DNA of 64,000 nt. It comes from Escherichia coli. Its GTDB lineage: Bacteria > Pseudomonadota > Gammaproteobacteria > Enterobacterales > Enterobacteriaceae. The notes below the pieces were generated by a model. It searched no databases, was not told the origin of the DNA, and saw nothing but the letters and a program-made list of their open reading frames with translations. This document shows, in pieces, positions 6,086-34,344 of the stretch (position 1 is the first letter of the stretch; the number at the start of each line of letters is the position of its first letter). Location of the stretch: NCBI RefSeq assembly GCF_041248615.1, contig NZ_CP158426.1, one strand, 5' to 3'. A program made the position numbers and the translations under genes.

Positions 6086-6286
6086 ATGGAAATCATTACA
6101 CGTATTGATGCCGCAAAGCGCGGACTTAAACGCTACTACACCGGAAAAACATGTAAGCACGGACATGACAGTGAACGCTGGGTTTACAACGGACACTGTG
6201 TTGAGTGCACCATGGAATCAAACCGTCGCATCAGGGCAGAGATTAAGCAGATCATGATTAATTCCTCCCCACAACATTCAAGCTGA
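6086..6286 (+). CDS. Small zinc-ribbon-like phage protein
   Basis: YYTGKTCKHGH...NGHCVECT motif. I prefer the ATG at 6086 over the upstream TTG at 6023. Confidence 0.55.
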   Translation: MEIITRIDAAKRGLKRYYTGKTCKHGHDSERWVYNGHCVECTMESNRRIRAEIKQIMINSSPQHSS

Positions 6287-6301
6287 TAGCGGAGATTAAT
6301 C

Positions 6302-7117
6302 ATGAGCAGACATGCAACAGATTGGGCCTGGGAGACAGATCCAGGTAGCTCGTCATTAAAGCTCATACTGCTCTCGATGGCTGACAGAGCCGATGAATAT
6401 AACCTCTGCTACCCCAGCATAGAACGCCTCGTTAAAGACACTTGCCTGAATAAAAAAACCGTGCAGGCCGGGCTTATATCGCTCATGAAAATGGGGCTTA
6501 TTTCAGATACCGGAGAGAGAAAGGGGGCGACGAAAAGAGTACGGGTTTTCTCTCTTAATATAACCAAAAACGGGAACATTAAAGGCAACCGGGAGGGGGG
6601 TAATGAACCCGAAAACGGTAATGTTACCGAAAACGGGAATATACCCAAAAACGGGATGTTGAATGATCCCAAAAACGGGATGTTGAATGATCCCAAAAAC
6701 GGGATCCAGAACCAGTCATATAACCAGTCATTTAACCAAGAGAGGGAGAGCAGGACAAAAAGCGGGGATTCTGTGCCTCATGACCCCGGCGCAAACAACG
6801 CCGTGATGAATAACTTTGTTCCTCCTGGTGGGCCAGGGCAATTAGGCAAATTTGTCATGCATGAACAATGGCAGCCATCAGATGACTTTCTTCGGAAAAG
6901 CTCATTGCAGGGGATCTACCTGGACAGTCTGCCAACGGCACAGGAACTTGCAGAGTTCAGAATTTACTGGATGGCTGAGGGTAAGGCATACCATCAGGCA
7001 CAGTGGGAGCAGAAGCTGGCAAGGCGGCTGCAGATTAGCAGACAGAAGCAATCAACATTACCTGATAACAACGTTCCGCACTGGAACAGCCCTGAAGCAT
7101 GGGAGGATTTCTTGTGA
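6302..7117 (+). CDS. Replication initiator (lambda O-like) with internal origin repeats
   Basis: N-terminal winged-helix region (LKLILLSMADRADEYNLCYPSIERL), central repeat-encoded segment (PKNGMLND x2), and a C-terminal region followed by a P-like gene. Confidence 0.7.
   Translation: MSRHATDWAWETDPGSSSLKLILLSMADRADEYNLCYPSIERLVKDTCLNKKTVQAGLISLMKMGLISDTGERKGATKRVRVFSLNITKNGNIKGNREGGNEPENGNVTENGNIPKNGMLNDPKNGMLNDPKNGIQNQSYNQSFNQERESRTKSGDSVPHDPGANNAVMNNFVPPGGPGQLGKFVMHEQWQPSDDFLRKSSLQGIYLDSLPTAQELAEFRIYWMAEGKAYHQAQWEQKLARRLQISRQKQSTLPDNNVPHWNSPEAWEDFL
6564..6705. repeat. Putative origin iterons (six copies of CC[C/G]AAAACGG[G/T]A), including 24-bp tandem repeats
   Basis: Copies start at 6564, 6608, 6626, 6644, 6668 and 6692. 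The last three are spaced exactly 24 bp apart. They are followed by AACCAGTCAT(A/T)T direct repeats. Confidence 0.7.
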
Positions 7118-7899
7118 ACAACGTTTTTACCGCGATACAAAACCGTGACGGAGAAGCCCTTTCTCGCATGTCAGGTTATGAGCATCAGTACGTCAACAAT
7201 GACAATGTGGTGAACATGTCAGCAGAGAGGCTTGTTGATGCCCTTTTTAAACAGCTGAAACAACTGTTTCCGGCGGCAGTGGTAACCAACCTGAAGACGC
7301 CAGAGCAGGAAGTTGCTGCAAAACAGCAGTGGATTGCTGCGTTTGCCGAAGGGGGGATCCGAACCCGTGAACAGGTTTCTGCTGGTATGCGCCACGCCCG
7401 CGCCAGTGAATCTCCGTTCTGGCCGTCTCCAGGGCAATTTATCAAGTGGTGCAAAGACAGCAAGATGGTTCTTGGCGTCACCATTGACGATGTGATGGCG
7501 GAGTTTCACCGGTACAGCAAGGAAAAAAGTTTATATCCTGGTGGTCCCGAAAGATTCCCGTGGCGACATCCGGTTATGTACTGGGTCGTATGTGATACCC
7601 GCCGTGCAATGTATCAGCGCCAGCTTAGCGAGATTGAGGTTGAGAAACACGCGCGCAGGCTGCTCGATGATTGGGCGAAAAAGGTGGCTTCCGGACAGCA
7701 GATACCCGATCCGGTGATCAGCATACAGGCAAAGCCAGAACCCATGAGTACACCTCCGGACACAGGGAGAGACGTTTACCATCCACCAGGGCGAAGTTTC
7801 GGGTGCATGCCTAACGCCGCCACCCTTGGGGGAATAACACCGGCGCAGTGGCTGATGGAGGAATACAGGCGGGGAAAGGCGGCAGGATTTATCAAGTAA
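7114..7899 (+). CDS. Replication protein P-like helicase loader
   Basis: AAKQQWIAAFAEGGIRTREQVSAGMRHARASESPFWPSPGQFIKWC is typical of the lambda P family. GTG at 7114 follows a GGAGG RBS; an alternative ATG is at 7099. Confidence 0.75.
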   Translation: MNNVFTAIQNRDGEALSRMSGYEHQYVNNDNVVNMSAERLVDALFKQLKQLFPAAVVTNLKTPEQEVAAKQQWIAAFAEGGIRTREQVSAGMRHARASESPFWPSPGQFIKWCKDSKMVLGVTIDDVMAEFHRYSKEKSLYPGGPERFPWRHPVMYWVVCDTRRAMYQRQLSEIEVEKHARRLLDDWAKKVASGQQIPDPVISIQAKPEPMSTPPDTGRDVYHPPGRSFGCMPNAATLGGITPAQWLMEEYRRGKAAGFIK

Positions 7900-7935
7900 T
7901 ACCAGCGCGATAGCGCATTTTTTTACGCCTCGACA

Positions 7936-8014
7936 ATTACCTGTTAGGTAATAAAATATTCTAAAATCTATTGATTTCGTGTCTTATGTGGTTTTTAATT
8001 ACCTCAGAGGTAAA
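7936..8014 (+). promoter_or_regulatory. Promoter of the next rightward unit, with two operators
   Basis: -35 TTGATT (7971-7976), 17-nt spacer, -10 TTTAAT (7994-7999). Operators at 7936-7952 and 7998-8014 have centres 62 bp apart, the same geometry as the leftward promoter. Confidence 0.55.
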
Positions 8015-8016
8015 TC

Positions 8017-8370
8017 ATGAGAAAACAGATACAGGCTCTTGGTCGACTCAAAACAGGTCAGATGAACAAAACAGAATCTGCGTATTGCCAGCACCTTGAG
8101 CTGCGTAAACGTGCAGGAGAAATCGTCTGGTATCGATTTGAGGGTATCAAGCTGCGGTTAGCTGACAACTGCTTCCTGACTGTAGATTTTGCCGTGATGT
8201 TGGCTGACGGGCAGTTGGTGATGGTGGACGTTAAGGGAAGTAAGTCAGTCTTTACTGACGATGCGAGAGTCAAGATGAAGGTTGCGGCAGACAGCTATCC
8301 GTTTGTCTTTCAGGTTGCTTATCCAAAACCTAAAAAGCTCGGTGGTGGATGGGAGGTTGAGGAACTATGA
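8017..8370 (+). CDS. DUF1064-like phage protein (putative PD-(D/E)XK nuclease/resolvase)
   Basis: 117 aa. The ESAYCQHLELRKRAGEI...VDVKG pattern resembles DUF1064. Confidence 0.55.
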   Translation: MRKQIQALGRLKTGQMNKTESAYCQHLELRKRAGEIVWYRFEGIKLRLADNCFLTVDFAVMLADGQLVMVDVKGSKSVFTDDARVKMKVAADSYPFVFQVAYPKPKKLGGGWEVEEL

Positions 8371-8975
8371 GCGAGAAGCCCAATGCTGCGGGATTGATTG
8401 TATCCGGTGATAAAAACCCGAATTGGAAGGGTGGGAAAATCGAAAAGGTTTGTTCCGTATGTGGCAGGCAATATCAGGTTAAGCGAGCCAACTCATCTTC
8501 AAGGTTCTGCTCACTTCAGTGTGTAGGAATTTCACAGCGAGGCAAGACGGTAAATCGGGAACTAAAGCGAGTATTAAAAATATGCTGCGTATGCGGATCT
8601 TCGTTCTCCGTTTTCTTGAGTCATGAGAAGCGTCATAAATGCTGCTCGAAACAGTGTTCCAACATAATGCGTTCTTCTCTGATGAAGGGGGAAGGAAATC
8701 CAAACTGGTCTGGTGGATTATCGAGATTGCCGTATCCGTGGGATTTCCGAGAAACGAGCAAGAGGGTTATTGAGCGAGATGGTTTTACTTGTCAGAACCC
8801 AGGTTGTGATGGAACAGACAAAAGGCTAACAACTCATCACATCAATTACGACAAGCAAGACTGTCGTCAGGAGAACCTTATTTGCCTTTGTTCGAGCTGT
8901 AACTCGAAGGCTAATTTCGGTCGGCATAAGTGGCAAAAGTTTTATGAATCACTGATGAAAAATAGATCGGCATGA
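8367..8975 (+). CDS. HNH endonuclease with N-terminal zinc-ribbon repeats
   Basis: C-terminal HNH motif (TTHHINYDKQDCRQENLICLCSSCNSKAN). Two NPNW(K/S)GG motifs and several CxxC clusters. Confidence 0.75.
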   Translation: MSEKPNAAGLIVSGDKNPNWKGGKIEKVCSVCGRQYQVKRANSSSRFCSLQCVGISQRGKTVNRELKRVLKICCVCGSSFSVFLSHEKRHKCCSKQCSNIMRSSLMKGEGNPNWSGGLSRLPYPWDFRETSKRVIERDGFTCQNPGCDGTDKRLTTHHINYDKQDCRQENLICLCSSCNSKANFGRHKWQKFYESLMKNRSA

Positions 8976-9036
8976 ATCGACGATCTTTTTAGTTATCAAT
9001 GTAATCAATAAGTTATGCGGATAAGCGAGGGTAAAG

Positions 9037-9618
9037 ATGGAAAGTAATATCAAAGGGTTAGTTGCCGCCGGGCATGAGATGGCTTCGGAACTGAAAGCAG
9101 AATGTGGTGCCGTTGATATGCGTAGTGTGGCAAAGCTGATCAGCGATTTGGCAACGCAACTGGAAGTGCAACTGGTGCGTGCTAATGCGCTGGCCGAAGA
9201 CCAACAGAAAGCGATTGAGTCAATTAAGCAGGCTGATTCGGCTGTTAAGTTGGCACACGAGAAGTTTTCGGCGCTGGCAGCGGAGAATGCAAAGCTGAAG
9301 AAGTTCTGCAAAGACGCTGCATTCGATGCCGATTACGAAGCAGAGCTAGGTATGGAGAGAGGTGGATTCAGTGATGCGCTTAACGAAATCAAAACCCCAG
9401 CCACCGATGCTTTCCTGGCTGAAGTGCGGGCGCAGGGCGTGGATGCTGCTATAGAAGCTGCAAAAAATCTGGTGGCCCAAGAATATGAGTATAAGGATTT
9501 CAAAGCGGCGCAGAGTGATTGCTGTATGCACCCTGGTTCAGACCTGGTAGGGAAGGTTGAAATAACTGAGTGGTTAGTTGACTTTGCTGCCCAGCTTCGC
9601 AAAGGAGGCAACCAGTGA
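9037..9618 (+). CDS. Ead/Ea22-like protein
   Basis: Coiled-coil protein whose ATDAFLAEVRAQGVD...FAAQLR tail is typical of Ea22-like prophage proteins. Confidence 0.6.
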   Translation: MESNIKGLVAAGHEMASELKAECGAVDMRSVAKLISDLATQLEVQLVRANALAEDQQKAIESIKQADSAVKLAHEKFSALAAENAKLKKFCKDAAFDADYEAELGMERGGFSDALNEIKTPATDAFLAEVRAQGVDAAIEAAKNLVAQEYEYKDFKAAQSDCCMHPGSDLVGKVEITEWLVDFAAQLRKGGNQ

Positions 9619-10100
9619 CTGGACATGCAGCAATCCTCGACATGTGCTGTGGCAGTCGCATGTTCTGGTTCGATAAGAATGACGACCGGGCGATATTTAG
9701 CGATATCAGAAAGGAAGAGCACACATTGTGTGATGGACGACGGCTGATAATTAGCCCTGACCTGATAGCAGATTTTCGTGCATTACCATTTGCAGACGCA
9801 TCGTTTCCGGTTGTTGTATTCGACCCTCCGCATCTTGAGCGTGTTGGTGATAACGCTTGGATGGGAAAGAAATATGGACGGCTGAATAAAGATACCTGGC
9901 GTGATGATTTGCAGCAGGGATTTAAAGAAGCCTTTCGTGTGTTGTGGCCATACGGCGTTCTGATTTTTAAATGGAATGAAACGCAAATACCTGTTCGCCA
10001 AATATTGGCACTGACCGACAGAAAGCCTGTTATCGGTCAACGAACAGGAAAGGGTGACAAGACCCACTGGATTATTTTTATGAAGGAGGGCAACCAGTGA
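9615..10100 (+). CDS. SAM-dependent DNA methyltransferase (DPPH motif)
   Basis: LDMCCGS (SAM-binding motif I) and VVFDPPH (catalytic motif IV). GTG start 6 nt after an AGGAGG RBS. Confidence 0.7.
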   Translation: MTGHAAILDMCCGSRMFWFDKNDDRAIFSDIRKEEHTLCDGRRLIISPDLIADFRALPFADASFPVVVFDPPHLERVGDNAWMGKKYGRLNKDTWRDDLQQGFKEAFRVLWPYGVLIFKWNETQIPVRQILALTDRKPVIGQRTGKGDKTHWIIFMKEGNQ

Positions 10101-10864
10101 GCAAAATTGACTATCAGGCACTGCGTGAAAAGGCAGAGAAAGCAACGTGTGGTGTGTGGTCGCTCGAATATGGAGAGAGCCGATTTGATTGTGATGATGC
10201 GCTAATTCATCGTGACGTTGTTGGATATCTTCCCATTTGCAGAATTGAAGGAGCGCATCCTGAAAGCGGTTTCGATGAAGATTTCCAGATGGAACAGCAG
10301 GCCAATGCTGAATTTATTGCTGCCTTTAATCCAAAGGTTGCTTTGGCACTACTGGATGAACGGAAAAAAAACCAGCAATACATCAAATCCCGCGACCAGG
10401 AGAACGAGGATATTGCGCTAACGGTAGGGAAGCTGCGCGTTGAGCTGGAAGCAGCAAAAAAGCGCATAGCAGAACTGGAGAAAAGCGAAGAGCAACTCAT
10501 CAACGAGCGTGACCATGCTGAGTCTGCTTTAGCTGATATGTACTTTGCAGCAACCGGGGATAGGCCTGAGTGGAGTAACTGGTTCGGCTTTTCAGATGCC
10601 GTCGATGCCGTAGTTGACAGAATTGCTGATTTAGAAGCTAAACAATGCATTGAAGAGATGAGTAAACAAAGTTGCGAAGCTCGGGAGCGTGATTTGTTTG
10701 AATCATGGGTAATGCATTCAATTTGTATTTCCAAATCGACGCTTGAAGGATTGCGCACCGAAACTGGATACCGTAACGCGACCTTATCAGGAACAGACTT
10801 CAACCGCATGTGGGAACAATGGAAATCTATCCGCGCCGCTGGCATTCGCATCAAAGGAGAGTGA
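10097..10864 (+). CDS. Ead/Ea22-like protein (second copy)
   Basis: ANAEFIAAFNPKVALALLDE motif followed by a coiled coil. Confidence 0.6.
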   Translation: MSKIDYQALREKAEKATCGVWSLEYGESRFDCDDALIHRDVVGYLPICRIEGAHPESGFDEDFQMEQQANAEFIAAFNPKVALALLDERKKNQQYIKSRDQENEDIALTVGKLRVELEAAKKRIAELEKSEEQLINERDHAESALADMYFAATGDRPEWSNWFGFSDAVDAVVDRIADLEAKQCIEEMSKQSCEARERDLFESWVMHSICISKSTLEGLRTETGYRNATLSGTDFNRMWEQWKSIRAAGIRIKGE

Positions 10865-10865
10865 T

Positions 10866-11414
10866 ATGACCACTATAACCGATAAGAAACAGTATCCCAG
10901 CGAGCAATATCTTAATGAGCTGATCACCAACATAGAGTTTGCTGCAAGGGCACCAGTTGAAGTCGTGAGAGCGATGGCAGCAGAGCTACAGAAGCGGCGC
11001 GAAGCTGATAGTGCAGAACCTGCAAGTAATCATGAAGAGTTGCCGCTTGATTATCTCCAAGGTCAAAAAGATGGTCTTGAATGGGCTGCGCAGCTTGCAG
11101 AAGCAAATCACCCACAAACTGGCGACTGGCTTTACGATGACCCGCTGGAGCTGGCTAAAGCTATCAGAAAAGGTCCTGACATGCCCGAATTCGATGGACC
11201 AACTCCGGTAACTCCGGATGGTTGGATAAGCTGTAGTGAGCGAATGCCCGCTCAAGATGATTGGATTTTAATTTATTCAAAGCACGGCGAGTATATGGCA
11301 GGACAGGTACAAGGGGAATACGTGGAGTTGAGCGACGGCACTTTATCGTGGTTAGGGAACGCCTTGTACTGGATGCCTCTACCGGAACCGCCGCAGGAGG
11401 TTAACCGTGGCTAA
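10866..11414 (+). CDS. DUF551 domain protein
   Basis: ATG at 10866 after a GGAG RBS. The C-terminal WISCSERMP...WMPLPEPP is typical of DUF551. Confidence 0.65.
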   Translation: MTTITDKKQYPSEQYLNELITNIEFAARAPVEVVRAMAAELQKRREADSAEPASNHEELPLDYLQGQKDGLEWAAQLAEANHPQTGDWLYDDPLELAKAIRKGPDMPEFDGPTPVTPDGWISCSERMPAQDDWILIYSKHGEYMAGQVQGEYVELSDGTLSWLGNALYWMPLPEPPQEVNRG

Positions 11415-11688
11415 CCTGCAACTAGCCGTTAAAGGTGAATACTTCGATGCCATCATTCGCGGAGAGAAAACGGAAGAGTATCGCCTGTGTAATGACTACT
11501 GGAATAAGCGAATTATGTTCAGGGATTATGACCGACTGATTATCACAAAGGGATATCCGAAGCGCGACGACTCCAGTCGTAGAATTGACGTCCCGTATGA
11601 CGGATATGAAATCAAGACAATCACACATCCCCACTTCGGCGATAAACCGGTAAAGGTATACGCGATAAAGGTAAATATTGATGGCTAA
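11407..11688 (+). CDS. ASCH/PUA-like domain protein
   Basis: VKGEYFDAIIRGEKTEEYR pattern; 93 aa. Confidence 0.55.
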   Translation: MANLQLAVKGEYFDAIIRGEKTEEYRLCNDYWNKRIMFRDYDRLIITKGYPKRDDSSRRIDVPYDGYEIKTITHPHFGDKPVKVYAIKVNIDG

Positions 11689-12019
11689 ATCAGCAGCAGA
11701 GCGCAAAGCCGCTCAGAGAGCCAGACAAGCTGCATCTGGTGTGCGTAAGCTGGAGATTGTGCTTGATGCTCAGGAAATTGAAATGCTGGAGCGTAACTGC
11801 GCCGCCCGGCGCCCTGGTCGAGATCCCTATGAAATGGCCGAGTACATCGCGCTGCTGATCCGCCAGGATGATGCCCGGGTGCGCGGGCGTATAAAATCGA
11901 TCAGCAGAAAACGTTGCGGTAAGTGCGGCGAGAGAGTTCCAGTTAATTCATGCCCGTGCAATGGTGACTCGCAATGCTGGGTGACTAAAGGCTGGCATGA
12001 AACGAAATTAATAGTGTGA
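11681..12019 (+). CDS. Hypothetical protein with C-terminal Cys cluster (possible late regulator)
   Basis: CGKCGERVPVNSCPCNGDSQC. It is the last gene before the terminase operon. The regulatory role is only inferred. Confidence 0.5.
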   Translation: MAKSAAERKAAQRARQAASGVRKLEIVLDAQEIEMLERNCAARRPGRDPYEMAEYIALLIRQDDARVRGRIKSISRKRCGKCGERVPVNSCPCNGDSQCWVTKGWHETKLIV

Positions 12020-12027
12020 CATGTCAC
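12016..12027. repeat. Perfect palindrome GTGACATGTCAC (copy 1 of 3)
   Basis: Exact 12-mer, also present at 14281 and 31824. Confidence 0.9.
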
Positions 12028-12068
12028 GAGTAGATTATGCATGATGAATTTGATGTGTTTTGAATACT

Positions 12069-12094
12069 GCCGCCAACTATGGCGGCTTTATTTT
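12069..12094 (+). terminator. Rho-independent terminator ending the early-right region
   Basis: GCCGCC-AACTAT-GGCGGC followed by TTTATTTT. Confidence 0.75.
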
Positions 12095-12104
12095 GCATGG
12101 TACT

Positions 12105-12139
12105 ATTACCACAACGGTAACTATTACCACGGTGGTTAT
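12105..12139. promoter_or_regulatory. Two operator-type sites upstream of terS
   Basis: ATTACCACAACGGTAAC (12105) and ATTACCACGGTGGTTAT (12123). They lie within the direct repeat ACTATTACCAC x2. Confidence 0.5.
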
Positions 12140-12734
12140 GATGCCTGCTGAACCTAAAACCTATAAACGCAAATCAACGCAATTTAAGCCACTAACAGCA
12201 ATGCAGGAGGCTTATTGCCAGTCATACATCAAAACGCCTGAAAACCAGACTCAGGCAGCGATTAACGCAGGATTCTCCCCAAATACAGCGGCAGTTAAAG
12301 CCAGTGTCATGATGCGCGATGAACGCATTCAAAAACGGATTGCCGAGTTGATGGAGGAGCGCAACAAACGAATGCGCGTCAGTGCTGATTACGTTCTCAT
12401 GCGCCTGGTGGAGATCGACCAGATGGACGTGATCGATATCCTCAACGACGATGGGAGCCTTAAACCAATCCGTGAGTGGCCGAAAATCTGGCGCACTACG
12501 CTTAGTGGCTTTGATCTGTCATCGACCATCATGAACATGAACGAGGATTCGATAGAGACAATCCTCAAAAAAATTAAATGGCCTGACAAGGTGAAGAACC
12601 TCGAACTGATTGGTAAGCACGTCGACGTCAACGCATTCAAAGAACGCCTGGATGTTAATGTGAATGTGACAATTGCTGATCGCATAGCGGCAGCCAGGAA
12701 GAGACTGAAAGAACGTCAGGATGGCAATCAGTGA
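12138..12734 (+). CDS. Terminase small subunit
   Basis: Terminase_2-like N-terminus (QEAYCQSYIKTPENQTQAAINAGFSPNTAAVKASVMM). It lies directly upstream of terL with a GTGA overlap. Confidence 0.8.
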   Translation: MMPAEPKTYKRKSTQFKPLTAMQEAYCQSYIKTPENQTQAAINAGFSPNTAAVKASVMMRDERIQKRIAELMEERNKRMRVSADYVLMRLVEIDQMDVIDILNDDGSLKPIREWPKIWRTTLSGFDLSSTIMNMNEDSIETILKKIKWPDKVKNLELIGKHVDVNAFKERLDVNVNVTIADRIAAARKRLKERQDGNQ

Positions 12735-14206
12735 CAGATACAGCGTTATCTCCTGAAGAGCAGTTAATCGAGGATATTGCAGGGTTCACTCACGATCCGC
12801 TTGGCTATGCCCTCTATGCGTTCCCGTGGGGGGAAGAGGGTACTGAACTGGCACATGCCACCGGTCCACGTCAGTGGCAGGCCGATGCGTTCCGAGAGAT
12901 ACGTGATCACCTGCAGAATCCAGAGACGCGATATCAGCCGCTTATGCTGGCACGTGCTTCTGGTCACGGTATTGGTAAATCCGCATTCATCTCAATGCTG
13001 ATCAACTGGGGCATGTCCACTTGCGAGGATTGTAAGGTCGTGGTGACCGCCAACACCGACAACCAGCTACGAACGAAGACCTGGCCGGAAATTATCAAGT
13101 GGTCGAACCTTGCTATCACGAAAGACTGGTTTACCTGTACCGCTACCGCGATGTACAGCAATGACCCTGGGCACGACAAGCGGTGGCGAGCTGACGCAAT
13201 CCCCTGGTCTGAGCACAACACTGAGGCATTCGCCGGACTACACAACGAGCGCAAACGCATCATCGTGGTATTCGACGAAGCATCCAACATTGCCGATCTG
13301 GTGTGGGAGGTAGCAGAGGGTGCGCTGACGGACGAAGACACTGAGATTATCTGGGTGGCATTCGGAAACCCTACACGTAACACCGGGCGTTTCCGCGAAT
13401 GTTTCCGCAAATATAAACACCGCTGGAAAACTGCGCAGATTGACAGCCGGACGGTGGAAGGCACTAACAAACAGCAGTTGCAGAAATGGGTTGATGACTA
13501 CGGGGAAGACAGCGACTTCGTTAAAATCCGTGTGCGCGGCATATTCCCGGATGCATCTGAATTGCAGTTTATCCCTACCGGCCTTACTGACGAGGCAATG
13601 AAACGGGTGGTAACCGCTGCGCAGGTTGCACATGCTCCGGTGATAATCGGCGTTGACCCGGCATACTCCGGCGTTGATGACGCTGTGATATACCTGCGGC
13701 AGGGGCTGCACAGTAAGGTGCTATGGACTGGTAACAAGACCACCGACGATCTGATTATGGCGAAGCGTATCGCTGACTTTGAAGACCAGTACCAGGCTGA
13801 CGCAGTGTTCATCGACTTCGGTTACGGAACTGGTCTGAAGTCAATCGGTGATGGCTGGGGACGTACATGGCAACTTGTTCCGTTCAGCGGTGCGTCCACT
13901 GACCCGCAGATGCTTAACAAGCGTGGGGAGATGTTCAACTCATGCAAGACATGGCTGAGGCTGGGCGGCATGCTGGATGACCAGGAAACAGCAGACGACC
14001 TGTCGGCGGCAGAGTACAAAGTTCGAGTGGACGGTAAAATCGTTATCGAACCGAAGGAAGATATCAAGGAGCGGCTTGGGCGTTCTCCTGGTAAAGGCGA
14101 TGCGCTACTGCTGACGTTTGCGTTCCCTGTGTCGAAGCGTCTGCGAATTCCCGGGCAGCAGAACCAGCAAGGCAAGGCCATCACAGATTACGATCCATAT
14201 GCTTAA
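12731..14206 (+). CDS. Terminase large subunit
   Basis: Walker A-like RASGHGIGKS, a Walker B/DE-like motif (IIVVFDEAS) and a C-terminal nuclease region; 491 aa. Confidence 0.9.
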   Translation: MTDTALSPEEQLIEDIAGFTHDPLGYALYAFPWGEEGTELAHATGPRQWQADAFREIRDHLQNPETRYQPLMLARASGHGIGKSAFISMLINWGMSTCEDCKVVVTANTDNQLRTKTWPEIIKWSNLAITKDWFTCTATAMYSNDPGHDKRWRADAIPWSEHNTEAFAGLHNERKRIIVVFDEASNIADLVWEVAEGALTDEDTEIIWVAFGNPTRNTGRFRECFRKYKHRWKTAQIDSRTVEGTNKQQLQKWVDDYGEDSDFVKIRVRGIFPDASELQFIPTGLTDEAMKRVVTAAQVAHAPVIIGVDPAYSGVDDAVIYLRQGLHSKVLWTGNKTTDDLIMAKRIADFEDQYQADAVFIDFGYGTGLKSIGDGWGRTWQLVPFSGASTDPQMLNKRGEMFNSCKTWLRLGGMLDDQETADDLSAAEYKVRVDGKIVIEPKEDIKERLGRSPGKGDALLLTFAFPVSKRLRIPGQQNQQGKAITDYDPYA

Positions 14207-14256
14207 TCCGCTGGTGGGGATAATACTGCTGATATCCTCTGGTGAGGATAAAACAA

Positions 14257-14280
14257 AGCCAGCTCATCGGCTGGCTGTTT
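14257..14280. terminator. Bidirectional terminator between terL and the gp49-like gene
   Basis: AGCCAGC-TCATCG-GCTGGCT flanked by AAAACAA on one side and GTTT on the other. Confidence 0.7.
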
Positions 14281-14292
14281 GTGACATGTCAC
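14281..14292. repeat. Perfect palindrome GTGACATGTCAC (copy 2 of 3)
   Basis: Exact 12-mer abutting the terminator. Confidence 0.9.
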
Positions 14293-14296
14293 GGTG

Positions 14297-14653
14297 TTAT
14301 TGCTCGCTTAACTTCTGCTTCAGCAAGTAACCTTCGAGCATCCAGATTTTGTTTACAGCATTCTGCCGGGCAATCTTCCGACCAATTTCTGCATCAAAAT
14401 TTTCCGGACTTGCACAGGCACTCTCTCCGGTGACGGTGAAGCCATTCTTCAGTACCAATACGCAGAAAGTCAGGAGGTCTGTAGATTTATGCGCTGTCCA
14501 TGAATCGCCAACACCCATATTGGCAGCACGAATGCCGTCATAAGCAGTAAAGAAATGCTCTTCAAGAATGATGCTTTCGATATATTGAGGCGTAACGCGC
14601 GGTGCCGTTTTGCCTTTCTCAACGATTTCTTTTTCGATTTGCTGGTCGTTCAT
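14297..14653 (-). CDS. N4 gp49 / Sf6 gp66-family protein
   Basis: LTFCVLVLKNGFTVTGESACASPENFDAEIGRKIARQNA is the hallmark of this family. Function is unknown. Confidence 0.8.
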   Translation of the reverse strand: MNDQQIEKEIVEKGKTAPRVTPQYIESIILEEHFFTAYDGIRAANMGVGDSWTAHKSTDLLTFCVLVLKNGFTVTGESACASPENFDAEIGRKIARQNAVNKIWMLEGYLLKQKLSEQ

Positions 14654-14766
14654 AATCTCACCTTAAAAAAATGCCCGGCGAACCTGGCGAACTGGAAGCA
14701 ATGAGTTATGCCTTCCGTGGCTGTACGGGTTTACAGCATGAAGTCATCGCAATGGCGTCCTGCTGT

Positions 14767-14809
14767 AAAAAAGGGCGGTGATAGTCCTTCAAGGGAAACT
14801 ATCACCGCC
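14767..14809 (-). terminator. Strong Rho-independent terminator downstream of the tRNA
   Basis: 12-bp stem GGCGGTGATAGT / ACTATCACCGCC, then CTTTTTT on the minus strand. Confidence 0.85.
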
Positions 14810-14852
14810 AAGCCCCTGGAACTTCTGGCATCACGGTCCTTAGGCGTGATTC

Positions 14853-14929
14853 TGGCGTGGCATGCAGGATTCGAACCTGCGACCAACCGCTTAGAAGGCG
14901 GTTGCTCTGTCCGACTGAGCTAATGCCAC
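14853..14929 (-). tRNA. tRNA-Arg (anticodon UCU) with encoded CCA
   Basis: Full cloverleaf folded by hand: acceptor GTGGCAT/ATGCCAC, D arm GCTC/GAGC, anticodon arm ACCGC-CTTCTAA-GCGGT, T arm GCAGG-TTCGAAT-CCTGC, discriminator G, CCA. Confidence 0.93.
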
Positions 14930-15245
14930 AACGCTGAGAGCACTTAGCCTGTTAAGGCGCCACACTTTGTCGCGGCTCCATAAATGCTCTCATCGTTGTA
15001 CCCTCGTCTCTTCCGAGGCGTCACACCGAATCGCCGGGATGGTGAATCCCCGTGCGCGGAATAAAACCGCTCGACTTGCACATTCCGGCTACCTGGTTCG
15101 TTTGCCCGAGCAAGGGAGGGTGCCCCTTAAACGTATCCAGACCGCTATCGGCGCATGTGCCATACACCGTACTGCTCAAAATAAAATCTCACTCCACCTG
15201 TTCAATTTAACGACAGGCCAGTCAGGTTAGTAACCGGAATGAACT
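14930..15245 (-). ncRNA. Candidate structured 5' leader / non-coding RNA upstream of tRNA-Arg
   Basis: About 320 nt with no credible ORF. It lies between the divergent promoter region and the tRNA and contains several stems, including a long-range stem 14936-14942/14985-14991 next to the tRNA 5' end. The class is unknown. Confidence 0.35.
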
Positions 15246-15250
15246 CTTTG

Positions 15251-15329
15251 GTTACCTGAAAGGTAATAATTTGTGCGTTAAATGTCAACTGTCTACGATA
15301 AATAAATCATATGTGGTTAAATTGGTAAT
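15251..15329. promoter_or_regulatory. Divergent control region upstream of the portal operon
   Basis: Operator GTTACCTGAAAGGTAAT (15251-15267) and variant GTGGTTAAATTGGTAAT (15313-15329) have centres 62 bp apart. CATATGTGGTT motif at 15308-15318. Confidence 0.5.
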
Positions 15330-32094: not shown

Positions 32095-32116
32095 AAAAAA
32101 GCCCGCAGCGCGGGCT
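32095..32116 (-). terminator. Rho-independent terminator after the 179-aa gene
   Basis: AGCCCGC / GCGGGCT stem followed by TTTTTT on the minus strand. Confidence 0.8.
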
Positions 32117-32655
32117 TACCAAAACTTGTACCACGGGGATTTATCCTTCAATGGACAATCCTTCCATCGTGTGGCCAACCATTCATATTCTTTAAAATAT
32201 GTGTTTATGTTTTCTTTTTCTCTAATGGCTTGTATAAGAGGTAGCGCAATCTGATAGTTATTTACAACGGAGCTGTAAAATACTTCCTTAATCATGGTCT
32301 CATCATAAGTTTTCCGCTTCACGCTCACAGCCATGCGTTCGTAGAAACCTAGACAGTAAATTATTTCTCTCTTCTCTGTCTTTTCTTCATCCGTAAGATC
32401 AGCCTGCCCATTGCTTGGATACATATAAGAGCGGAATGATTTGTTCGATTCGTGAATGCGGCGCATAGTAGATAGGCCTTTCTTATAATCTACATCAAAC
32501 CTGCTTTCACCAAGGAATACTGAAGTGTGTACTTTTCTCGCTGTATTTACATTATAAATAATAGTAGCGATAGCTATGAACAAGCCAAGCGAAACCGCGA
32601 CTGCACTTACGATTTGAGCCACAGCCATGGCAAATTGCATTTCTTCACTTAACAC
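32116..32655 (-). CDS. Membrane-anchored accessory protein (179 aa), possibly DUF4760-like
   Basis: N-terminal TM helix (AMAVAQIVSAVAVSLGLFIAIATIIY) and a helical cytoplasmic domain ending EYEWLATRW. AT-rich. GTG start with a GGAG RBS. The family call is from memory. Confidence 0.7.
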   Translation of the reverse strand: MLSEEMQFAMAVAQIVSAVAVSLGLFIAIATIIYNVNTARKVHTSVFLGESRFDVDYKKGLSTMRRIHESNKSFRSYMYPSNGQADLTDEEKTEKREIIYCLGFYERMAVSVKRKTYDETMIKEVFYSSVVNNYQIALPLIQAIREKENINTYFKEYEWLATRWKDCPLKDKSPWYKFW

Positions 32656-32670
32656 AAACTGTCTCCAGAC

Positions 32671-32696
32671 ATGAAAACGGGGCCTAATGGCCCCGT
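32671..32696 (-). terminator. Strong intrinsic terminator immediately upstream of the 179-aa gene
   Basis: ACGGGGCC-ATTA-GGCCCCGT followed by TTTCAT on the minus strand, about 20 nt before the RBS. Confidence 0.75.
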
Positions 32697-32714
32697 CATT
32701 AAACTATCCGAATG

Positions 32715-32747
32715 TTAAACGCCTTCGTACTCGTCAAATTTTCTCAT
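32715..32747 (-). CDS. 10-codon mini-ORF (MRKFDEYEGV) with a strong RBS
   Basis: AGGAGG lies 7 nt before the ATG. The ORF sits between an operator site and the terminator. Whether it is translated is unknown. Confidence 0.25.
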   Translation of the reverse strand: MRKFDEYEGV

Positions 32748-32783
32748 GTGGGCTCCTCCTGTATCGGTGCCTAATCGCTATGG

Positions 32784-32800
32784 ATCACCCGTGAGGTAAT
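32784..32800. promoter_or_regulatory. Operator-type site ATCACCCGTGAGGTAAT
   Basis: Matches the dispersed palindrome. On the minus strand a TACTAT -10-like hexamer abuts it. Confidence 0.5.
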
Positions 32801-32865
32801 AGTAAGCTATTCACCTGCAATCTGTACAGAATTATTTAAAGGCACATCCCTGTGCCGCCGCCCCG

Positions 32866-33576
32866 TCAGAAGAACCCTGCCTTGTCGTTGATGTATTCCG
32901 CGTGAGTCTGGATATCACGCAGGCATTTGCTCACACCGACGATGTAGCAAAACATGGTGGTCAGCTCCGCCGCCGCGCCCGATACGTCGTGCCCGTCGTC
33001 CTGTAACTGGTTCAGCAGATTCATCAGCAGTGAGTTCTCCGTCAGGCCGAGAACACCAGACGGAGAATGAATCAGACTGCGGTAGCCGGGCTTCAGTGGG
33101 GCGCTGTAGGTTTTGTTCTCTATCTTCATTGCCTGCATCACTGCTGATGCTGTGGCGTTGGCTACCTGGTCGGCAACCATCTTTATGCGTTCTTCCTGCG
33201 GGAGCGAGTTTTTAATGTAACTTCCGGTGCGGCGGATCTGAGGAAGAACCTCACCTGTAACCCATTTACGAAAGCGGTAGGGGATAGTGCCTGGTGTCAC
33301 CGCATCGCGGCAGCGGAGGATCAGTGTGTAGAGGCCTGACTCGGAGATGATGTTGATCTCTTTTACTCGGCTGTCAAAAATCGCACGATGTTCATGCCCT
33401 ATGTTGAACATAGACCTTTCATCATCATCCAGTTTTTCAAGTGATTGGGTGACGTTTTGGATACGCAGCGCACTACAAACGTCTTGGGCTACAAACCATG
33501 GTTGGCCATCGATAATGATGGAACGGATAGGGTTAACAGATTCAAATTTGAAGATGGCAGTTTGAGCATTAGCCAT
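32866..33576 (-). CDS. ant: Antirepressor (Bro-N domain plus C-terminal domain)
   Basis: IFKFESVNPIRSIIIDGQPWFVAQDVCSAL is a Bro-N/Ant N-terminus. ATG at 33576 has a GGAG RBS. The C-terminal roughly 70 aa are about 48% identical by eye to the 85-aa protein upstream. Confidence 0.8.
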   Translation of the reverse strand: MANAQTAIFKFESVNPIRSIIIDGQPWFVAQDVCSALRIQNVTQSLEKLDDDERSMFNIGHEHRAIFDSRVKEINIISESGLYTLILRCRDAVTPGTIPYRFRKWVTGEVLPQIRRTGSYIKNSLPQEERIKMVADQVANATASAVMQAMKIENKTYSAPLKPGYRSLIHSPSGVLGLTENSLLMNLLNQLQDDGHDVSGAAAELTTMFCYIVGVSKCLRDIQTHAEYINDKAGFF

Positions 33577-33730
33577 GGTGGTTATCTCCACTTAGTGATT
33601 TTAATCACCACCGCAACGCCAATTACTGGTGGTGAACTGGACAAGGTTGGCGTACCGGCCTAAGTGGTACCGGCGTCCTTTCGGACCCCTGCCCAGCCCA
33701 CCATAATTCGGATATAGCTGTGCTTAACGC

Positions 33731-33852
33731 ATAAAAAAACCACGTCTGGCGTGGTATGCGCCACTTAGTAACTCGGGACGCCAATCCCGGCACTGGATTT
33801 TGCCAGTGCCAGATTACTATGGCACAAGAGGAGTGCGATGTAAATTTACCGC
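33731..33852 (-). ncRNA. Candidate roughly 120-nt terminated leader RNA / small RNA upstream of ant
   Basis: It would start at the predicted promoter (33860-33888) and contains hairpins at 33789-33810 and 33775-33788. It ends at terminator ACCACG-CCAGA-CGTGGT + TTTTTTT (33731-33755). Confidence 0.4.
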
Positions 33853-33888
33853 AAAGGTAAATATAAGCACTCCAGTTGGTAATTGCAA
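33845..33888 (-). promoter_or_regulatory. Operator-controlled promoter upstream of the ant leader
   Basis: On the minus strand: TTGCAA (33883-33888), 17-nt spacer, TATATT (33860-33865). Operator TTTACCGCAAAGGTAAA (33845-33861) overlaps the -10 and +1. Confidence 0.55.
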
Positions 33889-33891
33889 ACC

Positions 33892-34149
33892 TTATCTGGT
33901 TTGTTTTCGTAATTGTTCGGCACAATAGTCGAGATGTGTTTGCAGATCCCGCATAGACATCTGTGAGCTGGTGACGTAGTTAATCAGTGCAGTCAGTTCG
34001 GCAAGTGGGCCATCGACATTAAATCCATCCTTATCGAGATCCCGGAGTAATTTCATCAAGTGCGATCCCTCCACCAGTGACCTGACGCCTCCCGGCGTGT
34101 GAATCCTTTCGGTAAATCCGTCTTCCAGTGGATAGTGATACTGCTGCAT
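33892..34149 (-). CDS. Small protein (85 aa) paralogous to the Ant C-terminal domain; putative second antirepressor
   Basis: ATG at 34149 with a GGAG RBS. A LexA box lies just upstream. The longer 126-aa ORF would run through the promoter/operator region. Confidence 0.65.
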   Translation of the reverse strand: MQQYHYPLEDGFTERIHTPGGVRSLVEGSHLMKLLRDLDKDGFNVDGPLAELTALINYVTSSQMSMRDLQTHLDYCAEQLRKQTR

Positions 34150-34168
34150 CTTATCTTCTCCATGCAAT

Positions 34169-34188
34169 AACTGTATATTTATACAGTA
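34169..34188. promoter_or_regulatory. LexA (SOS) box
   Basis: AACTGTATATTTATACAGTA, a perfect CTGT-N8-ACAG core with an AT-rich centre. It lies 20 nt upstream of the 85-aa gene. Confidence 0.8.
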
Positions 34189-34224
34189 GCAAATAATTTG
34201 TTTGCTATCCAGCACGTTTTGCAA

Positions 34225-34291
34225 ATCACCTGAAAGGTAATATCTATTCGTATTTACAGTCTTTCTATCCATATGTGGTTTTTCAGGTAAT
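34225..34291. promoter_or_regulatory. Divergent control region upstream of the tailspike gene
   Basis: Operator ATCACCTGAAAGGTAAT (34225-34241), ATATCTATTCGTA (34240-34252), and CATATGTGGTT-N5-GGTAAT (34270-34291). Confidence 0.5.
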
Positions 34292-34344
34292 AGAATAACC
34301 AGATATGCGGCGCAACGGGTGCTGCGACTATCTGGAGATTTAAC

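What the first reader, a model, noticed from the sequence alone, without database searches (positions are those of the whole stretch)
33577..33890. The ant leader has an operator-controlled promoter, a terminated ~120-nt RNA and repeated segments that could switch the ant RBS on or off
The 300 nt between the 85-aa gene and ant are non-coding but highly organised on the minus strand.
- Promoter: TTGCAA, 17-nt spacer, TATATT (33860-33888), with operator TTTACCGCAAAGGTAAA over the -10 and +1.
- Two hairpins: GGCACTGG/CCAGTGCC (33789-33810) and GGGA/TCCC (33775-33788).
- A single-stranded CUAAGUGG segment (33761-33768).
- An intrinsic terminator: ACCACG-CCAGA-CGTGGT followed by U7 (33731-33755).
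- Downstream of the terminator: the exact complement CCACUUAG (33660-33667), then CACCACC (33628-33634) and GGUGGUG (33606-33612).
- A second CUAAGUGG copy overlaps the ant Shine-Dalgarno sequence (33588-33595).
- ACCACC lies directly before the AUG (33577-33582).

There are therefore two X / X' / X triplets. One set of pairings (the middle CCACUUAG with the RBS copy of CUAAGUGG, and GGUGGUG with ACCACC) would occlude the RBS. The other set (CCACUUAG with the upstream copy, and CACCACC with GGUGGUG) would free it. The short terminated RNA carries the upstream copy, so it could also act in trans. The logic resembles the P1 c4 and P22 sar immunity RNAs, but I do not recognise the sequence. An 8-mer occurring twice plus its reverse complement once within 200 nt is very unlikely by chance.
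Basis: partly seen in the sequence, partly recalled or inferred. Interest (0 to 1): 0.75.

Follow-up and report, generated by a model that had tools for sequence, protein, structure and literature searches.

The report
P1-type C4/IsrK antirepressor control leader
The organised 300-nt leader in front of the prophage antirepressor gene is a textbook member of two already catalogued phage RNA families, the IsrK/a1b1 leader RNA and the C4 antisense RNA of phage P1, so it is real and functional-looking but not new.

Summary
Rfam explains the region. isrK (RF01394) matches 33733-33809(-) at 67 bits (cut-off 50). C4 antisense RNA (RF01695) matches 33625-33708(-) at 66 bits (cut-off 45). c4-a1b1 matches at 43.5 bits (cut-off 46.7).

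The layout maps one to one onto the annotated immI region of phage P1 and onto the tested isrK-"orf45"-anrP locus of Salmonella prophage Gifsy-1.

Among 42 distinct homologous C4 loops, 81% have a perfect run of 7 nt or more against their own b2. Only 6.5% do against another locus's b2.

CACCACC is the 3' strand of the C4 closing stem. Its pairing with GGUGGUG is nevertheless conserved and covaries.

The conserved promoter is the proximal one, which gives a ~77-nt RNA rather than ~120 nt. The palindrome belongs to a 16-copy repressor-operator family.

Most likely mechanism: processed C4 RNA blocks the ant RBS, and the IsrK-like RNA titrates C4.

Verdict: already known, low novelty.

The parts
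33860..33888 (-). By position it is a possible analogue of P1 P51a.
   Evidence: Consensus scan scores 9 of 12. In operator-bearing relatives a -35/-10-like pair stays at this position although its sequence differs, for example TTGATT...TATCAT. No transcript data.
33844..33862 (.). Operator palindrome ATTTACC-N5-GGTAAAT (core TTACC-N5-GGTAA, 33846-33860). It overlaps the distal -10 and +1 and abuts the proximal -35.
   Evidence: The core occurs 16 times (up to 1 mismatch) in the window against 1.09 expected. Two copies lie between a divergent HTH_3 repressor-like gene and a cro-like gene. It sits at a fixed -51 in 27 of 85 upstream contexts. The epsilon15 record annotates the same motif as a 'repressor (lysogeny)' binding site.
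33816..33844 (-). Proximal promoter TTTACA-17-(TGn)CATAGT. Predicted start is about 33809, the first base of hairpin 1.
   Evidence: Found by the consensus scan. A TTGACA-17-TATA(T/G)T consensus lies at the same distance from hairpin 1 in 85 distinct contexts. It aligns with the Gifsy-1 isrK promoter TTGACA-17-TATATT and with P1 P1c4/P51b, whose -10 is TATAGT.
33733..33809 (-). IsrK-like leader RNA, about 77 nt: hairpin 1 (33790-33809), hairpin 2 (33774-33789), linker, and intrinsic terminator.
   Evidence: Rfam isrK RF01394 scores 67.2 bits against a cut-off of 50, full length. c4-a1b1 RF03163 scores 43.5 bits over 33770-33822. MFE -29.7 kcal/mol, z -2.87.
33778..33785 (-). a1 site AUUGGCGU, in the loop of hairpin 2.
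   Evidence: It occupies the same position as P1's annotated a1 TTGACAG. It is complementary to a' at -12.7 kcal/mol. It contains the residues equivalent to Gifsy-1 IsrK G28 and G31, which were shown to pair with C162 and C159 (PMC4825925).
33761..33768 (-). b1 site CUAAGUGG, the upstream copy of the variable specificity site.
   Evidence: Confirmed at these coordinates. A perfect run of 7 nt or more with the cognate C4 loop occurs in 74% of 42 classes, against 1.3% for non-cognate pairs.
33733..33755 (-). Intrinsic terminator ACCACG-CCAGA-CGUGGU followed by U7. This is the 3' end of the IsrK-like RNA, and read-through is needed to make C4 and ant mRNA.
   Evidence: Found by the terminator scan. 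It matches the 3' hairpin of the Rfam isrK model. A run of five or more T follows a hairpin in all 66 distinct homologous 3' parts, and predicted RNA lengths are 74-85 nt with a mode of 77.
33625..33708 (-). C4 antisense RNA. The predicted mature form is 33628-33704, 77 nt, starting at GGU.
   Evidence: Rfam C4 RF01695 scores 66 bits against a cut-off of 45. MFE -43.6 kcal/mol, z -4.80. The closing stem is 98.6% paired in 56 sequences, with 9 of 17 pairs changed on both sides. The ends are inferred from P1's annotated 77-nt c4 and the GGW RNase P site (PMC5320573).
33660..33667 (-). b' CCACUUAG, in the loop of C4 hairpin 2.
   Evidence: Position confirmed. It forms 8 of 8 Watson-Crick pairs with both b1 and b2, -12.6 kcal/mol each.
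33647..33653 (-). a' ACGCCAA, the single-stranded junction of C4.
   Evidence: Coordinates and energies. Four co-varying a1/a'/a2 types are seen: GGCGU/ACGCC, GGCAU/AUGCC (L057), GGCAG/CUGCC (L032) and GACAG/CUGUC (P1).
33605..33635 (-). a2-presenting hairpin. UCACCACC (the 3' strand of C4) pairs with GGUGGUGA, and a2 AUUGGCGU (33616-33623) is in the loop. It cannot form together with the C4 closing stem.
   Evidence: MFE -16.8 kcal/mol, z -4.18. It is 90.9% paired, 7 of 10 pairs are changed on both sides, and the covariation score is 0.276 against 0.151 for shuffles (0 of 500).
33586..33595 (-). b2 CUAAGUGG (33588-33595), overlapping the ant Shine-Dalgarno GGAG (33586-33589).
   Evidence: Confirmed at these coordinates. 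In homologues the b2 match ends 6-15 nt before the start codon. A cognate run of 7 nt or more occurs in 81%, against 6.5% for non-cognate pairs.
32866..33576 (-). ant, a Bro-N antirepressor-type gene (236 aa, ATG at 33576). It is the regulated gene.
   Evidence: Pfam Bro-N PF02498, E = 3.4e-19. phiV10 annotates the homologue as a 'putative anti-immunity protein'.

Best explanation
This is a P1-type immI antisense control module placed directly in front of a Bro-N antirepressor gene.

Transcription starts at a conserved promoter just upstream of hairpin 1. A second, distal promoter may also contribute. Both lie beside or under a binding site for the prophage repressor.

Most transcripts stop at the intrinsic terminator and give a ~77-nt IsrK-like RNA that carries sites a1 and b1. 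Transcripts that read through contain the C4 RNA followed by the ant mRNA.

C4 folds into a tRNA-like structure. By analogy with P1, RNase P releases it at the GGU. Its b' loop and a' junction pair with b2, which covers the ant Shine-Dalgarno, and with a2. This blocks ribosome binding and keeps Ant off in the lysogen and on incoming homoimmune phage.

The IsrK-like RNA carries the same two target sites. It competes for C4, in cis within the long transcript and in trans as the short RNA. The balance of IsrK, C4 and ant mRNA therefore sets whether Ant is made.

The variable b sites act as an immunity specificity code.

Shown here: family membership, the architecture, three-way covariation, overlap of b2 with the SD, and the operator family. 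Inferred from P1 and Gifsy-1 work: processing, the direction of regulation, and trans action.
For: - Rfam isrK scores 67.2 bits (cut-off 50) and C4 scores 66 bits (cut-off 45), in tandem on the ant strand.
- The order is identical to P1's annotated Oc4 operator, P51a, P51b, a1, b1, c4, a2, b2 and RBS. P1's own leader scores 35 bits on isrK.
- The Gifsy-1 isrK locus has the same order. C4 scores 69 bits inside its 'orf45'/STnc1160 region.
- There are 42 distinct C4 hairpin-2 loops. A perfect run of 7 nt or more occurs for cognate b':b2 in 81% against 6.5% non-cognate. For b':b1 the figures are 74% against 1.3%.
- The b2 match ends 6-15 nt before the start codon.
- Four co-varying a types are seen.
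- The C4 fold covaries and is very stable.
- Duplex energies: b':b2 -12.6, a':a2 -9.8, b':b1 -12.6, a':a1 -12.7 kcal/mol.
- Downstream genes in 84 homologous modules are antirepressor-type: Bro-N, ORF6N, Rha and P22_AR_C.
- The operator motif occurs 16 times against 1.09 expected, and epsilon15 annotates it as a repressor site.
- Literature: c4 RNA represses Ant synthesis in trans (PMC8546580). It is processed by RNase P at GGW, and the b' loop occludes the RBS (PMC5320573). IsrK acts in trans to switch on antirepressor translation, and a1:a' pairing was proven by compensatory mutations (PMC4825925).
Against: - There are no expression, processing or mutational data for this prophage. Everything functional is by homology.
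- The module lacks P1's icd ORF. The Gifsy-1 'orf45' frame is only 14 codons here. Neither published downstream coupling step can therefore apply as described.
- In Gifsy-1, cis mutations in a1 raised basal translation (PMC4825925 Table 1D). A pure decoy role for a1b1 does not predict this, so the cis role of a1/b1 is unresolved.
- The covarying hairpin between the C4 3' strand and GGUGGUGA competes with the C4 fold and has no assigned role in this model.
- MFE cofolding cannot model loop-loop kissing, so it neither supports nor refutes the pairing.
Confidence: 0.85

Rival explanations
1. A purely cis-acting RBS switch. The unprocessed leader toggles between two folds. In one, b':b2 and GGUGGUG:ACCACC pair and the RBS is closed. 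In the other, b':b1 and CACCACC:GGUGGUG pair and the RBS is open. No processed trans-acting C4 RNA is required.
For: - All segments exist at the stated coordinates.
- CACCACC:GGUGGUGA pairing covaries.
- GGUGGU:ACCACC forms in the MFE fold of the target region. phiV10 has the compensated pair AGUGGU/ACCACU.
- Gifsy-1 work did find two conformers of the long transcript with different translational activity (PMC4825925).
Against: - The middle elements are locked in a 17-bp closing stem with strong covariation and z -4.8. This stem forms before the downstream partners are transcribed.
- The RNA matches a family whose founding member is a processed 77-nt trans-acting repressor (P1 annotation; PMC8546580; PMC5320573).
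- A stable processed species, STnc1160, exists at the homologous Gifsy-1 position.
- G-segment pairing with the pre-AUG segment is only weakly enriched: 24% against 8.4%.
Confidence: 0.1
2. The Gifsy-1 mechanism applies exactly as published. The short IsrK RNA opens the RBS of a small ORF that starts at the AUG of AUGGUGG, and ant is translated only by coupling to that ORF.
For: The locus is homologous to Gifsy-1 isrK-orf45-anrP. The AUG is present at 33706.
Against: - Here the frame stops after 14 codons at the UAG inside the b' loop, about 85 nt before the ant AUG.
- In 41 of 71 unique leaders the frame stops early, and lengths range from 8 to 108 codons. The ORF is therefore not conserved, whereas the RNA structure is.
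- b2 covers ant's own SD.
Confidence: 0.04
3. Control by transcription termination, as with P4 CI RNA and its seqA/seqC sites. C4 pairing with a1b1 and a2b2 mainly controls termination or read-through rather than ribosome binding.
For: Hershko-Shalev et al. note the structural similarity of IsrK to P4 seqA and raise this idea for STnc1160. In P1, repression of icd translation causes polarity on ant (own knowledge of Heinrich et al. 1994, cited in PMC8546580).
Against: - b2 overlaps the SD in nearly all homologues. This is the signature of translational occlusion.
- No terminator-like site lies between C4 and ant on the minus strand.
- The Gifsy-1 authors' own test did not support the termination idea.
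Confidence: 0.08

Closest known systems
Phage P1/P7 immI region: C1 operator Op51, promoters P51a and P51b, a1, b1, c4, a2, b2, icd, ant1/2
   Same: - The order of every RNA element is the same.
- The C4 fold is the same, and the predicted mature RNA is 77 nt starting at GGU.
- The a site sits in the loop of hairpin 2 and again just 3' of C4.
- The b site lies over the RBS of the first downstream ORF.
- A terminator-like hairpin lies between b1 and c4.
- Two promoters flank a site for the phage's main repressor.
- The output is an antirepressor.

   Different: - There is no icd ORF. b2 covers the SD of the antirepressor gene itself.
- The antirepressor is a Bro-N protein, not Ant1/Ant2.
- The a sequence is UUGGCGU/ACGCCAA rather than UUGACAG/CUGUCAA.
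- The operator is a TTACC-N5-GGTAA palindrome rather than the asymmetric C1 site. It lies between the two promoters rather than over the -35 of the distal one.
- The host element is an integrated epsilon15/phiV10-like podophage, not a plasmid prophage.
Gifsy-1 isrK-orf45(STnc1160)-anrP locus (Hershko-Shalev et al. 2016, PMC4825925)
   Same: - Direct homologue: isrK scores 79 bits against 67 here, and C4 scores 69 against 66.
- The a1/a'/a2 sequence is identical.
- The promoter position and terminator match.
- b2 lies over the antirepressor SD (AAUCACCGGAGG).

Experimental results there include a terminated short RNA, read-through mRNA, trans activation and a1:a' pairing. They are the best available proxy for this locus.
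   Different: - The b specificity differs: CUAAGUGG here, UCACCG in Gifsy-1.
- The 45-codon frame is reduced to 14 codons here.
- The antirepressor is Bro-N here and ORF6N-type there.
- No isrJ lies downstream and no antQ lies upstream.
- The Gifsy-1 paper does not call the orf45 region a C4 RNA.
APSE phages of Hamiltonella (PMC7313666)
   Same: A c4-family RNA, an isrK-family RNA and an adjacent BRO-N gene were reported together. The a'/b' sites match the region upstream of the BRO gene.
   Different: The host and phage are different, and only a genome annotation is available. I did not compare sequences.
P22 immI sar RNA
   Same: A small RNA that limits antirepressor (ant) translation in a temperate phage of enterobacteria.
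   Different: - sar is transcribed from the opposite strand across the ant RBS, so it is a true cis-antisense RNA.
- Here all elements are on the ant strand.
- No + strand promoter-like site was found in the leader.
- No sar match appeared in Rfam at E up to 1.
P4 CI RNA with seqA/seqC
   Same: A processed, tRNA-like small RNA flanked upstream and downstream by copies of its target. The Gifsy-1 authors cite it as a structural analogue.
   Different: It acts by transcription termination on replication genes. Membership was not tested here beyond the absence of any further Rfam hit.

Membership tests
C4 antisense RNA (Rfam RF01695; P1/P7 c4) | Covariance-model score at or above the curated gathering score. 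| tested here: met
   66.0 bits against 45, E = 1.4e-10 over the 64-kb window, full-length match 1-87.
C4 antisense RNA (Rfam RF01695; P1/P7 c4) | A long closing stem enclosing a tetraloop hairpin and a second hairpin, supported by covariation. | tested here: met
   MFE -43.6 kcal/mol, z -4.80. The closing stem is 98.6% paired in 56 sequences, 9 of 17 pairs are changed on both sides, and 0 of 500 shuffles reach the observed value.
C4 antisense RNA (Rfam RF01695; P1/P7 c4) | The b' loop is complementary to a site (b2) over the RBS of the first downstream ORF. | tested here: met
   CCACUUAG pairs 8 of 8 with CUAAGUGG at 33588-95, which overlaps GGAG at 33586-89. It covaries in 81% of 42 classes against 6.5% for non-cognate pairs.
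C4 antisense RNA (Rfam RF01695; P1/P7 c4) | a' is complementary to a site (a2) just 3' of C4, with upstream duplicates a1 and b1. | tested here: met
   ACGCCAA at 33647-53 against AUUGGCGU at 33616-23 and at 33778-85. b1 is at 33761-68. The positions are the same as in P1's annotation.
C4 antisense RNA (Rfam RF01695; P1/P7 c4) | Processing from a longer transcript by RNase P to about 77 nt, followed by trans repression of ant. | not testable with these tools
   [quoted passage not shown] The requirement comes from PMC5320573 and PMC8546580.
P1 immI operon (c4-icd-ant) | A small icd ORF lies between c4 and ant, and its translation is the direct target and is needed for ant expression. | tested here: not met
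   C4 ends at about 33628 and the ant ATG is at 33576, with b2 over ant's own SD. There is no intervening ORF. Some homologous modules do have a 63-72-aa first ORF.
isrK (Rfam RF01394; Gifsy-1 IsrK) | Covariance-model score at or above the gathering score, with two 5' hairpins, a linker and an intrinsic terminator. | tested here: met
   67.2 bits against 50, full length 1-77. The terminator is found independently.
isrK (Rfam RF01394; Gifsy-1 IsrK) | Its own promoter lies immediately upstream of hairpin 1. | tested here: met
   TTTACA-17-CATAGT ends 7 nt before 33809. The same geometry is kept in 85 contexts and in Gifsy-1. This is sequence evidence only.
isrK (Rfam RF01394; Gifsy-1 IsrK) | A downstream orf45 is translationally coupled to the antirepressor gene. 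| tested here: not met
   The frame from AUG 33706 stops after 14 codons. It is not conserved in 41 of 71 leaders.
isrK (Rfam RF01394; Gifsy-1 IsrK) | Hfq binding and trans activation of antirepressor translation. | not testable with these tools
   Known only for Gifsy-1 (PMC4825925).
c4-a1b1 (Rfam RF03163) | Covariance-model score at or above the gathering score. | tested here: not met
   43.5 bits against 46.7 at 33770-33822. This is just below the cut-off, and the same hairpins are claimed by isrK. P1 scores 51 bits and Gifsy-1 scores 48 bits.
P22 sar-type cis-antisense control | An RNA transcribed from the opposite strand across the ant RBS. | tested here: not met
   No + strand promoter-like site was found in 33577-33890. 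No sar hit appeared at E up to 1. All conserved structure is on the ant strand.

The most novel reading that the evidence does not exclude
Two literatures describe one and the same device. The IsrK 'dual-function sRNA/mRNA' of Gifsy-1 is the a1b1 leader RNA of a P1-type immI module. Its 'orf45'/STnc1160 is a C4 antisense RNA rather than a coding ORF.

On this reading, IsrK activates the antirepressor by titrating C4. The hypervariable b1/b'/b2 triple, with at least 42 classes, serves as an immunity barcode.

The covarying hairpin between the C4 3' strand and GGUGGUGA competes with the C4 closing stem. It would then be a processing-dependent switch that decides whether a read-through transcript yields repressor RNA or translatable ant mRNA.

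The distal, operator-covered promoter would produce a longer RNA in which b1 is masked.
Probability: 0.3. Interest if true: 0.45.

Novelty: already known. Interest (0 to 1): 0.22.

Why it matters
The finding assigns a function to an unannotated 300-nt gap. Close copies of this gap occur in 456 of 5,426 complete E. coli genomes, and RefSeq lists no RNA gene there. The assignment predicts which prophages are homo- or hetero-immune at the antirepressor level, because that is set by their b-site sequence.

There is some broader value. The comparison shows that the Gifsy-1 IsrK system and the P1 c4 system are the same module. The 'orf45' reading frame is not conserved, while the C4 fold is. This bears on how the published IsrK mechanism should be read. 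It does not reveal a new kind of regulator.

Tried and rejected
- **RNAcofold and duplexfold on whole RNAs.** Cofolding predicts no intermolecular pairs because loop-loop kissing lies outside its model. Whole-molecule duplexfold unfolds everything. Neither is informative, so I used local site-to-site duplex energies instead.
- **A strict terminator classifier for homologues.** It under-counted because the stems run into the U tract. I report only that every homologue has a hairpin plus a run of five or more T.
- **Primary papers.** I tried to read the primary P1 papers (PMC312442, PMC196329) and the SPC32H paper (PMC3807360). None is held. Those points rest on secondary citations, GenBank annotation and my own knowledge.
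- **RefSeq annotation.** I checked whether RefSeq annotates an RNA at this locus. It does not.
- **Coding explanation, rejected.** The 100-aa TTG ORF at 33623-33925 is not credible because homologues differ there by loop indels that are not multiples of three.
- **P22 sar-type antisense, rejected**.
CACCACC is the C4 acceptor-like strand.
- **Large searches not used.** I did not run the protein or structure searches because the RNA families settled the question.
Full report
**1. Observation**

I read 33400-34300 on the minus strand and checked each claimed motif by script. The consensus scans recover TTGCAA-17-TATATT (9 of 12) and the terminator ACCACGCCAGACGTGGT plus T-run independently. They also find a second promoter-like site closer to the hairpins, TTTACA-17-CATAGT with a TGn extension, at 33844-33816.

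An 8-mer present twice plus its reverse complement once arises in about 1.3% of Markov-1 simulations of a 314-nt region. That is suggestive but not overwhelming on its own.

**2. What it is**

A gathering-threshold Rfam scan of the whole window returns three hits. Two of them lie inside the finding:
- isrK (RF01394) at 33733-33809(-), 67.2 bits, cut-off 50
- C4 antisense RNA (RF01695) at 33625-33708(-), 66 bits, cut-off 45

A permissive scan adds c4-a1b1 (RF03163) at 33770-33822, 43.5 bits against a cut-off of 46.7. It covers the same two hairpins as isrK. No P22 sar match appears.

The gene downstream is a Bro-N protein. The window is an epsilon15/phiV10-like prophage of E. coli. It is 98% identical to phage HEMP4 and 89% to phiV10 across this region, and the 341-nt leader query is 100% identical to NZ_LT599825.

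**3. One-to-one mapping onto P1 and Gifsy-1**

The P1 GenBank record annotates, in order:
- the C1 operator Oc4
- promoters P51a and P51b
- a1 (TTGACAG) and b1 (GTTAGTGC)
- the 77-nt c4 RNA
- a2 (TTGACAG)
- b2 (GTTAGTGA), described as the site for 'repression of icd ant translation'

Reading the P1 sequence and the Rfam alignments shows the following:
- a1 is the loop of leader hairpin 2.
- b1 follows it.
- A terminator-like hairpin comes next.
- b' is the loop of C4 hairpin 2.
- a' is the single-stranded junction.
- a2 lies just 3' of C4.
- b2 covers the SD.

The window has the same layout:

| Site | Sequence | Coordinates |
|---|---|---|
| a1 | AUUGGCGU | 33778-85 |
| b1 | CUAAGUGG | 33761-68 |
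| b' | CCACUUAG | 33660-67 |
| a' | ACGCCAA | 33647-53 |
| a2 | AUUGGCGU | 33616-23 |
| b2 | CUAAGUGG | 33588-95, over GGAG at 33586-89 |

P1's own leader scores 35 bits on the isrK model.

In Gifsy-1, where IsrK was defined, the same scan gives isrK 79 bits, c4-a1b1 48 bits and C4 69 bits. The C4 hit lies exactly in the region published as 'orf45'/STnc1160. Its b2 (AAUCACCGGAGG) covers the anrP SD.

**4. Comparative test**

A pattern for the two leader hairpins retrieved 120 viral contigs, which gave 91 unique leaders. The b sites differ widely between loci but change together within a locus.

Among 42 distinct C4 hairpin-2 sequences:

| Pairing | Cognate, perfect run of 7 nt or more | Non-cognate |
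|---|---|---|
| b':b2 | 81% | 6.5% |
| b':b1 | 74% | 1.3% |

The b2 match ends 6-15 nt before the start codon. In one group it covers the start codon itself.

The a sites occur in four compensated types: GGCGU/ACGCC, GGCAU/AUGCC, GGCAG/CUGCC and P1's GACAG/CUGUC. The search pattern fixed most of a1 but did not constrain a' or a2.

On an alignment of 56 distinct sequences, the C4 fold is strongly supported:
- The closing stem is 98.6% paired.
- 9 of 17 of its pairs are changed on both sides.
- No shuffle reaches the observed covariation.
- Slid controls are far lower.

They do conserve it.

**5. The CACCACC / GGUGGUG / ACCACC set**

CACCACC is the 3' strand of the C4 closing stem, and it pairs with AUGGUGG at 33698-33704.

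Its pairing with GGUGGUGA also covaries: UCGCCACC/GGUGGCGA, GCUACCAC/GUGGUAGC, CCAUCACC/GGUGAUGG and CCCUCCC/GGGAGGG. That hairpin is 90.9% paired, with 7 of 10 pairs changed on both sides. It places a2 in an 8-nt loop (-16.8 kcal/mol, z -4.18).

The two helices share a strand and cannot coexist. This is a real, conserved feature without an assigned role.

GGUGGU:ACCACC before the AUG forms in the MFE fold, and phiV10 has the compensated pair AGUGGU/ACCACU. Across loci the enrichment is weak, however: 6 bp or more in 24% of cognate pairs against 8.4% of non-cognate pairs.

**6. Promoters and operator**

In 85 distinct upstream contexts, a TTGACA-17-TATA(T/G)T consensus ends 7 nt before hairpin 1. 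This matches the Gifsy-1 isrK promoter and P1 P51b. The conserved start is about 33809, so the terminated RNA is about 77 nt. Homologues predict 74-85 nt.

In relatives that carry the operator, a promoter-like pair stays at that position although its sequence differs.

Evidence on the palindrome core TTACC-N5-GGTAA:
- It occurs 16 times in the window against 1.09 expected.
- Two copies lie between a divergent HTH_3 repressor-like gene and a cro-like gene.
- It sits at a fixed -51 in 27 of 85 contexts.
- The epsilon15 record annotates it as a 'repressor (lysogeny)' binding site.

'Operator-controlled' is thus well supported as an inference. This arrangement, a repressor-controlled distal promoter plus a proximal one, parallels P1.

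**7. Mechanism**

From P1:
- c4 is a processed trans-acting RNA that represses Ant synthesis (PMC8546580).
- RNase P cuts at a GGW motif, and the b' loop occludes the RBS (PMC5320573).

From Gifsy-1 (PMC4825925):
- Most transcripts end at the IsrK terminator.
- Read-through RNA is translationally silent.
- Short IsrK in trans activates antirepressor translation more than 100-fold.
- G28 and G31 of IsrK, which are a1 residues, pair with C162 and C159, which are a' residues.

I therefore propose that C4 blocks the ant RBS through b':b2 and a':a2, and that the IsrK-like RNA titrates C4.

Local duplex energies are -12.6 (b':b2), -9.8 (a':a2), -12.6 (b':b1) and -12.7 (a':a1) kcal/mol.

Two published downstream steps cannot apply here:
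- There is no icd.
- The 'orf45' frame is 14 codons here and stops early in 41 of 71 leaders.

The Gifsy-1 double mutants did not restore low basal expression (Table 1D). That fits a' being needed to pair with a2.

**8. Comparison and novelty**

The isrK + c4 + BRO-N adjacency has already been reported for APSE phages (PMC7313666). Both RNA families have been curated since 2008-2010 (PMC2864571).

RefSeq and phage records do not annotate the RNAs at this locus. A 2025 review still lists IsrK and c4 as unrelated entries. The only mildly new point is therefore the explicit unification, together with the non-conservation of orf45.

**Verdict**

The element is a regular member of known families. 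Interest is low.

Noticed in passing
window 34171-34186: A perfect LexA box, CTGTATATTTATACAG, lies just upstream of the 85-aa gene (33892-34149, minus strand). That gene is the homologue of the small 'ant' antirepressor of Salmonella phage SPC32H and of epsilon15 gp19. The prophage therefore appears to carry two antirepressor systems in tandem, one SOS-controlled and one C4-controlled. No terminator-like site on the minus strand separates them.
   Followed up: partly
window 4832-15266, 32785-32799, 33846-33860, 34226-34240: TTACC-N5-GGTAA palindromes occur at 16 sites against 1.09 expected. They include pairs at 5606/5654 and 7937/7999 and a site upstream of the DUF4760 gene. This looks like a dispersed operator set for the 194-aa HTH_3 repressor-like protein at 4966-5550(-).
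   Followed up: partly
window 32116-33890: The block isrK-C4-ant(Bro-N)-DUF4760 is absent from epsilon15 and SPC32H, where the small ant gene is followed directly by the convergent membrane-protein gene. It therefore looks like an inserted accessory module in phiV10-like phages.
   Followed up: partly
window 33812-33822 with 33761-33772: An RNA started at the distal promoter (121 nt, -48.9 kcal/mol, z -5.08) is predicted to pair CCAUAGUAAUC with GUUACUAAGUGG. This would mask b1, whereas the 77-nt RNA from the proximal promoter leaves b1 open. The flanking UAGUAAUC/GAUUACUA complementarity recurs in phiV10-like relatives.
   Followed up: no
L124 (Gifsy-1, NC_010392) 34131-34214, minus strand: The published 'orf45'/STnc1160 region of Gifsy-1 scores 69 bits as Rfam C4. 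The orf45 start codon is the AUG of the conserved AUGGUGG at the 5' end of C4. The frame is not conserved in 41 of 71 homologous leaders.
   Followed up: yes
loci L018, L024, L029 and L054, L069, L119: In the first group, b2 overlaps the start codon and first codons (AUGACUACUCAA) instead of the SD. In the second group, b':b2 contains a G.U pair, so the exact-match test under-counts it. L004 carries a complete IsrK-C4 unit whose downstream part has been replaced.
   Followed up: no
window 14856-14929, minus strand: A tRNA gene (73 bits) lies within the prophage region.
   Followed up: no
L021 3966-3994 and 7228-7256: One viral contig carries two IsrK-C4 modules with different b specificities (UCCGUAC and GUUUCGA), each in front of an ORF6N-type gene.
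   Followed up: no
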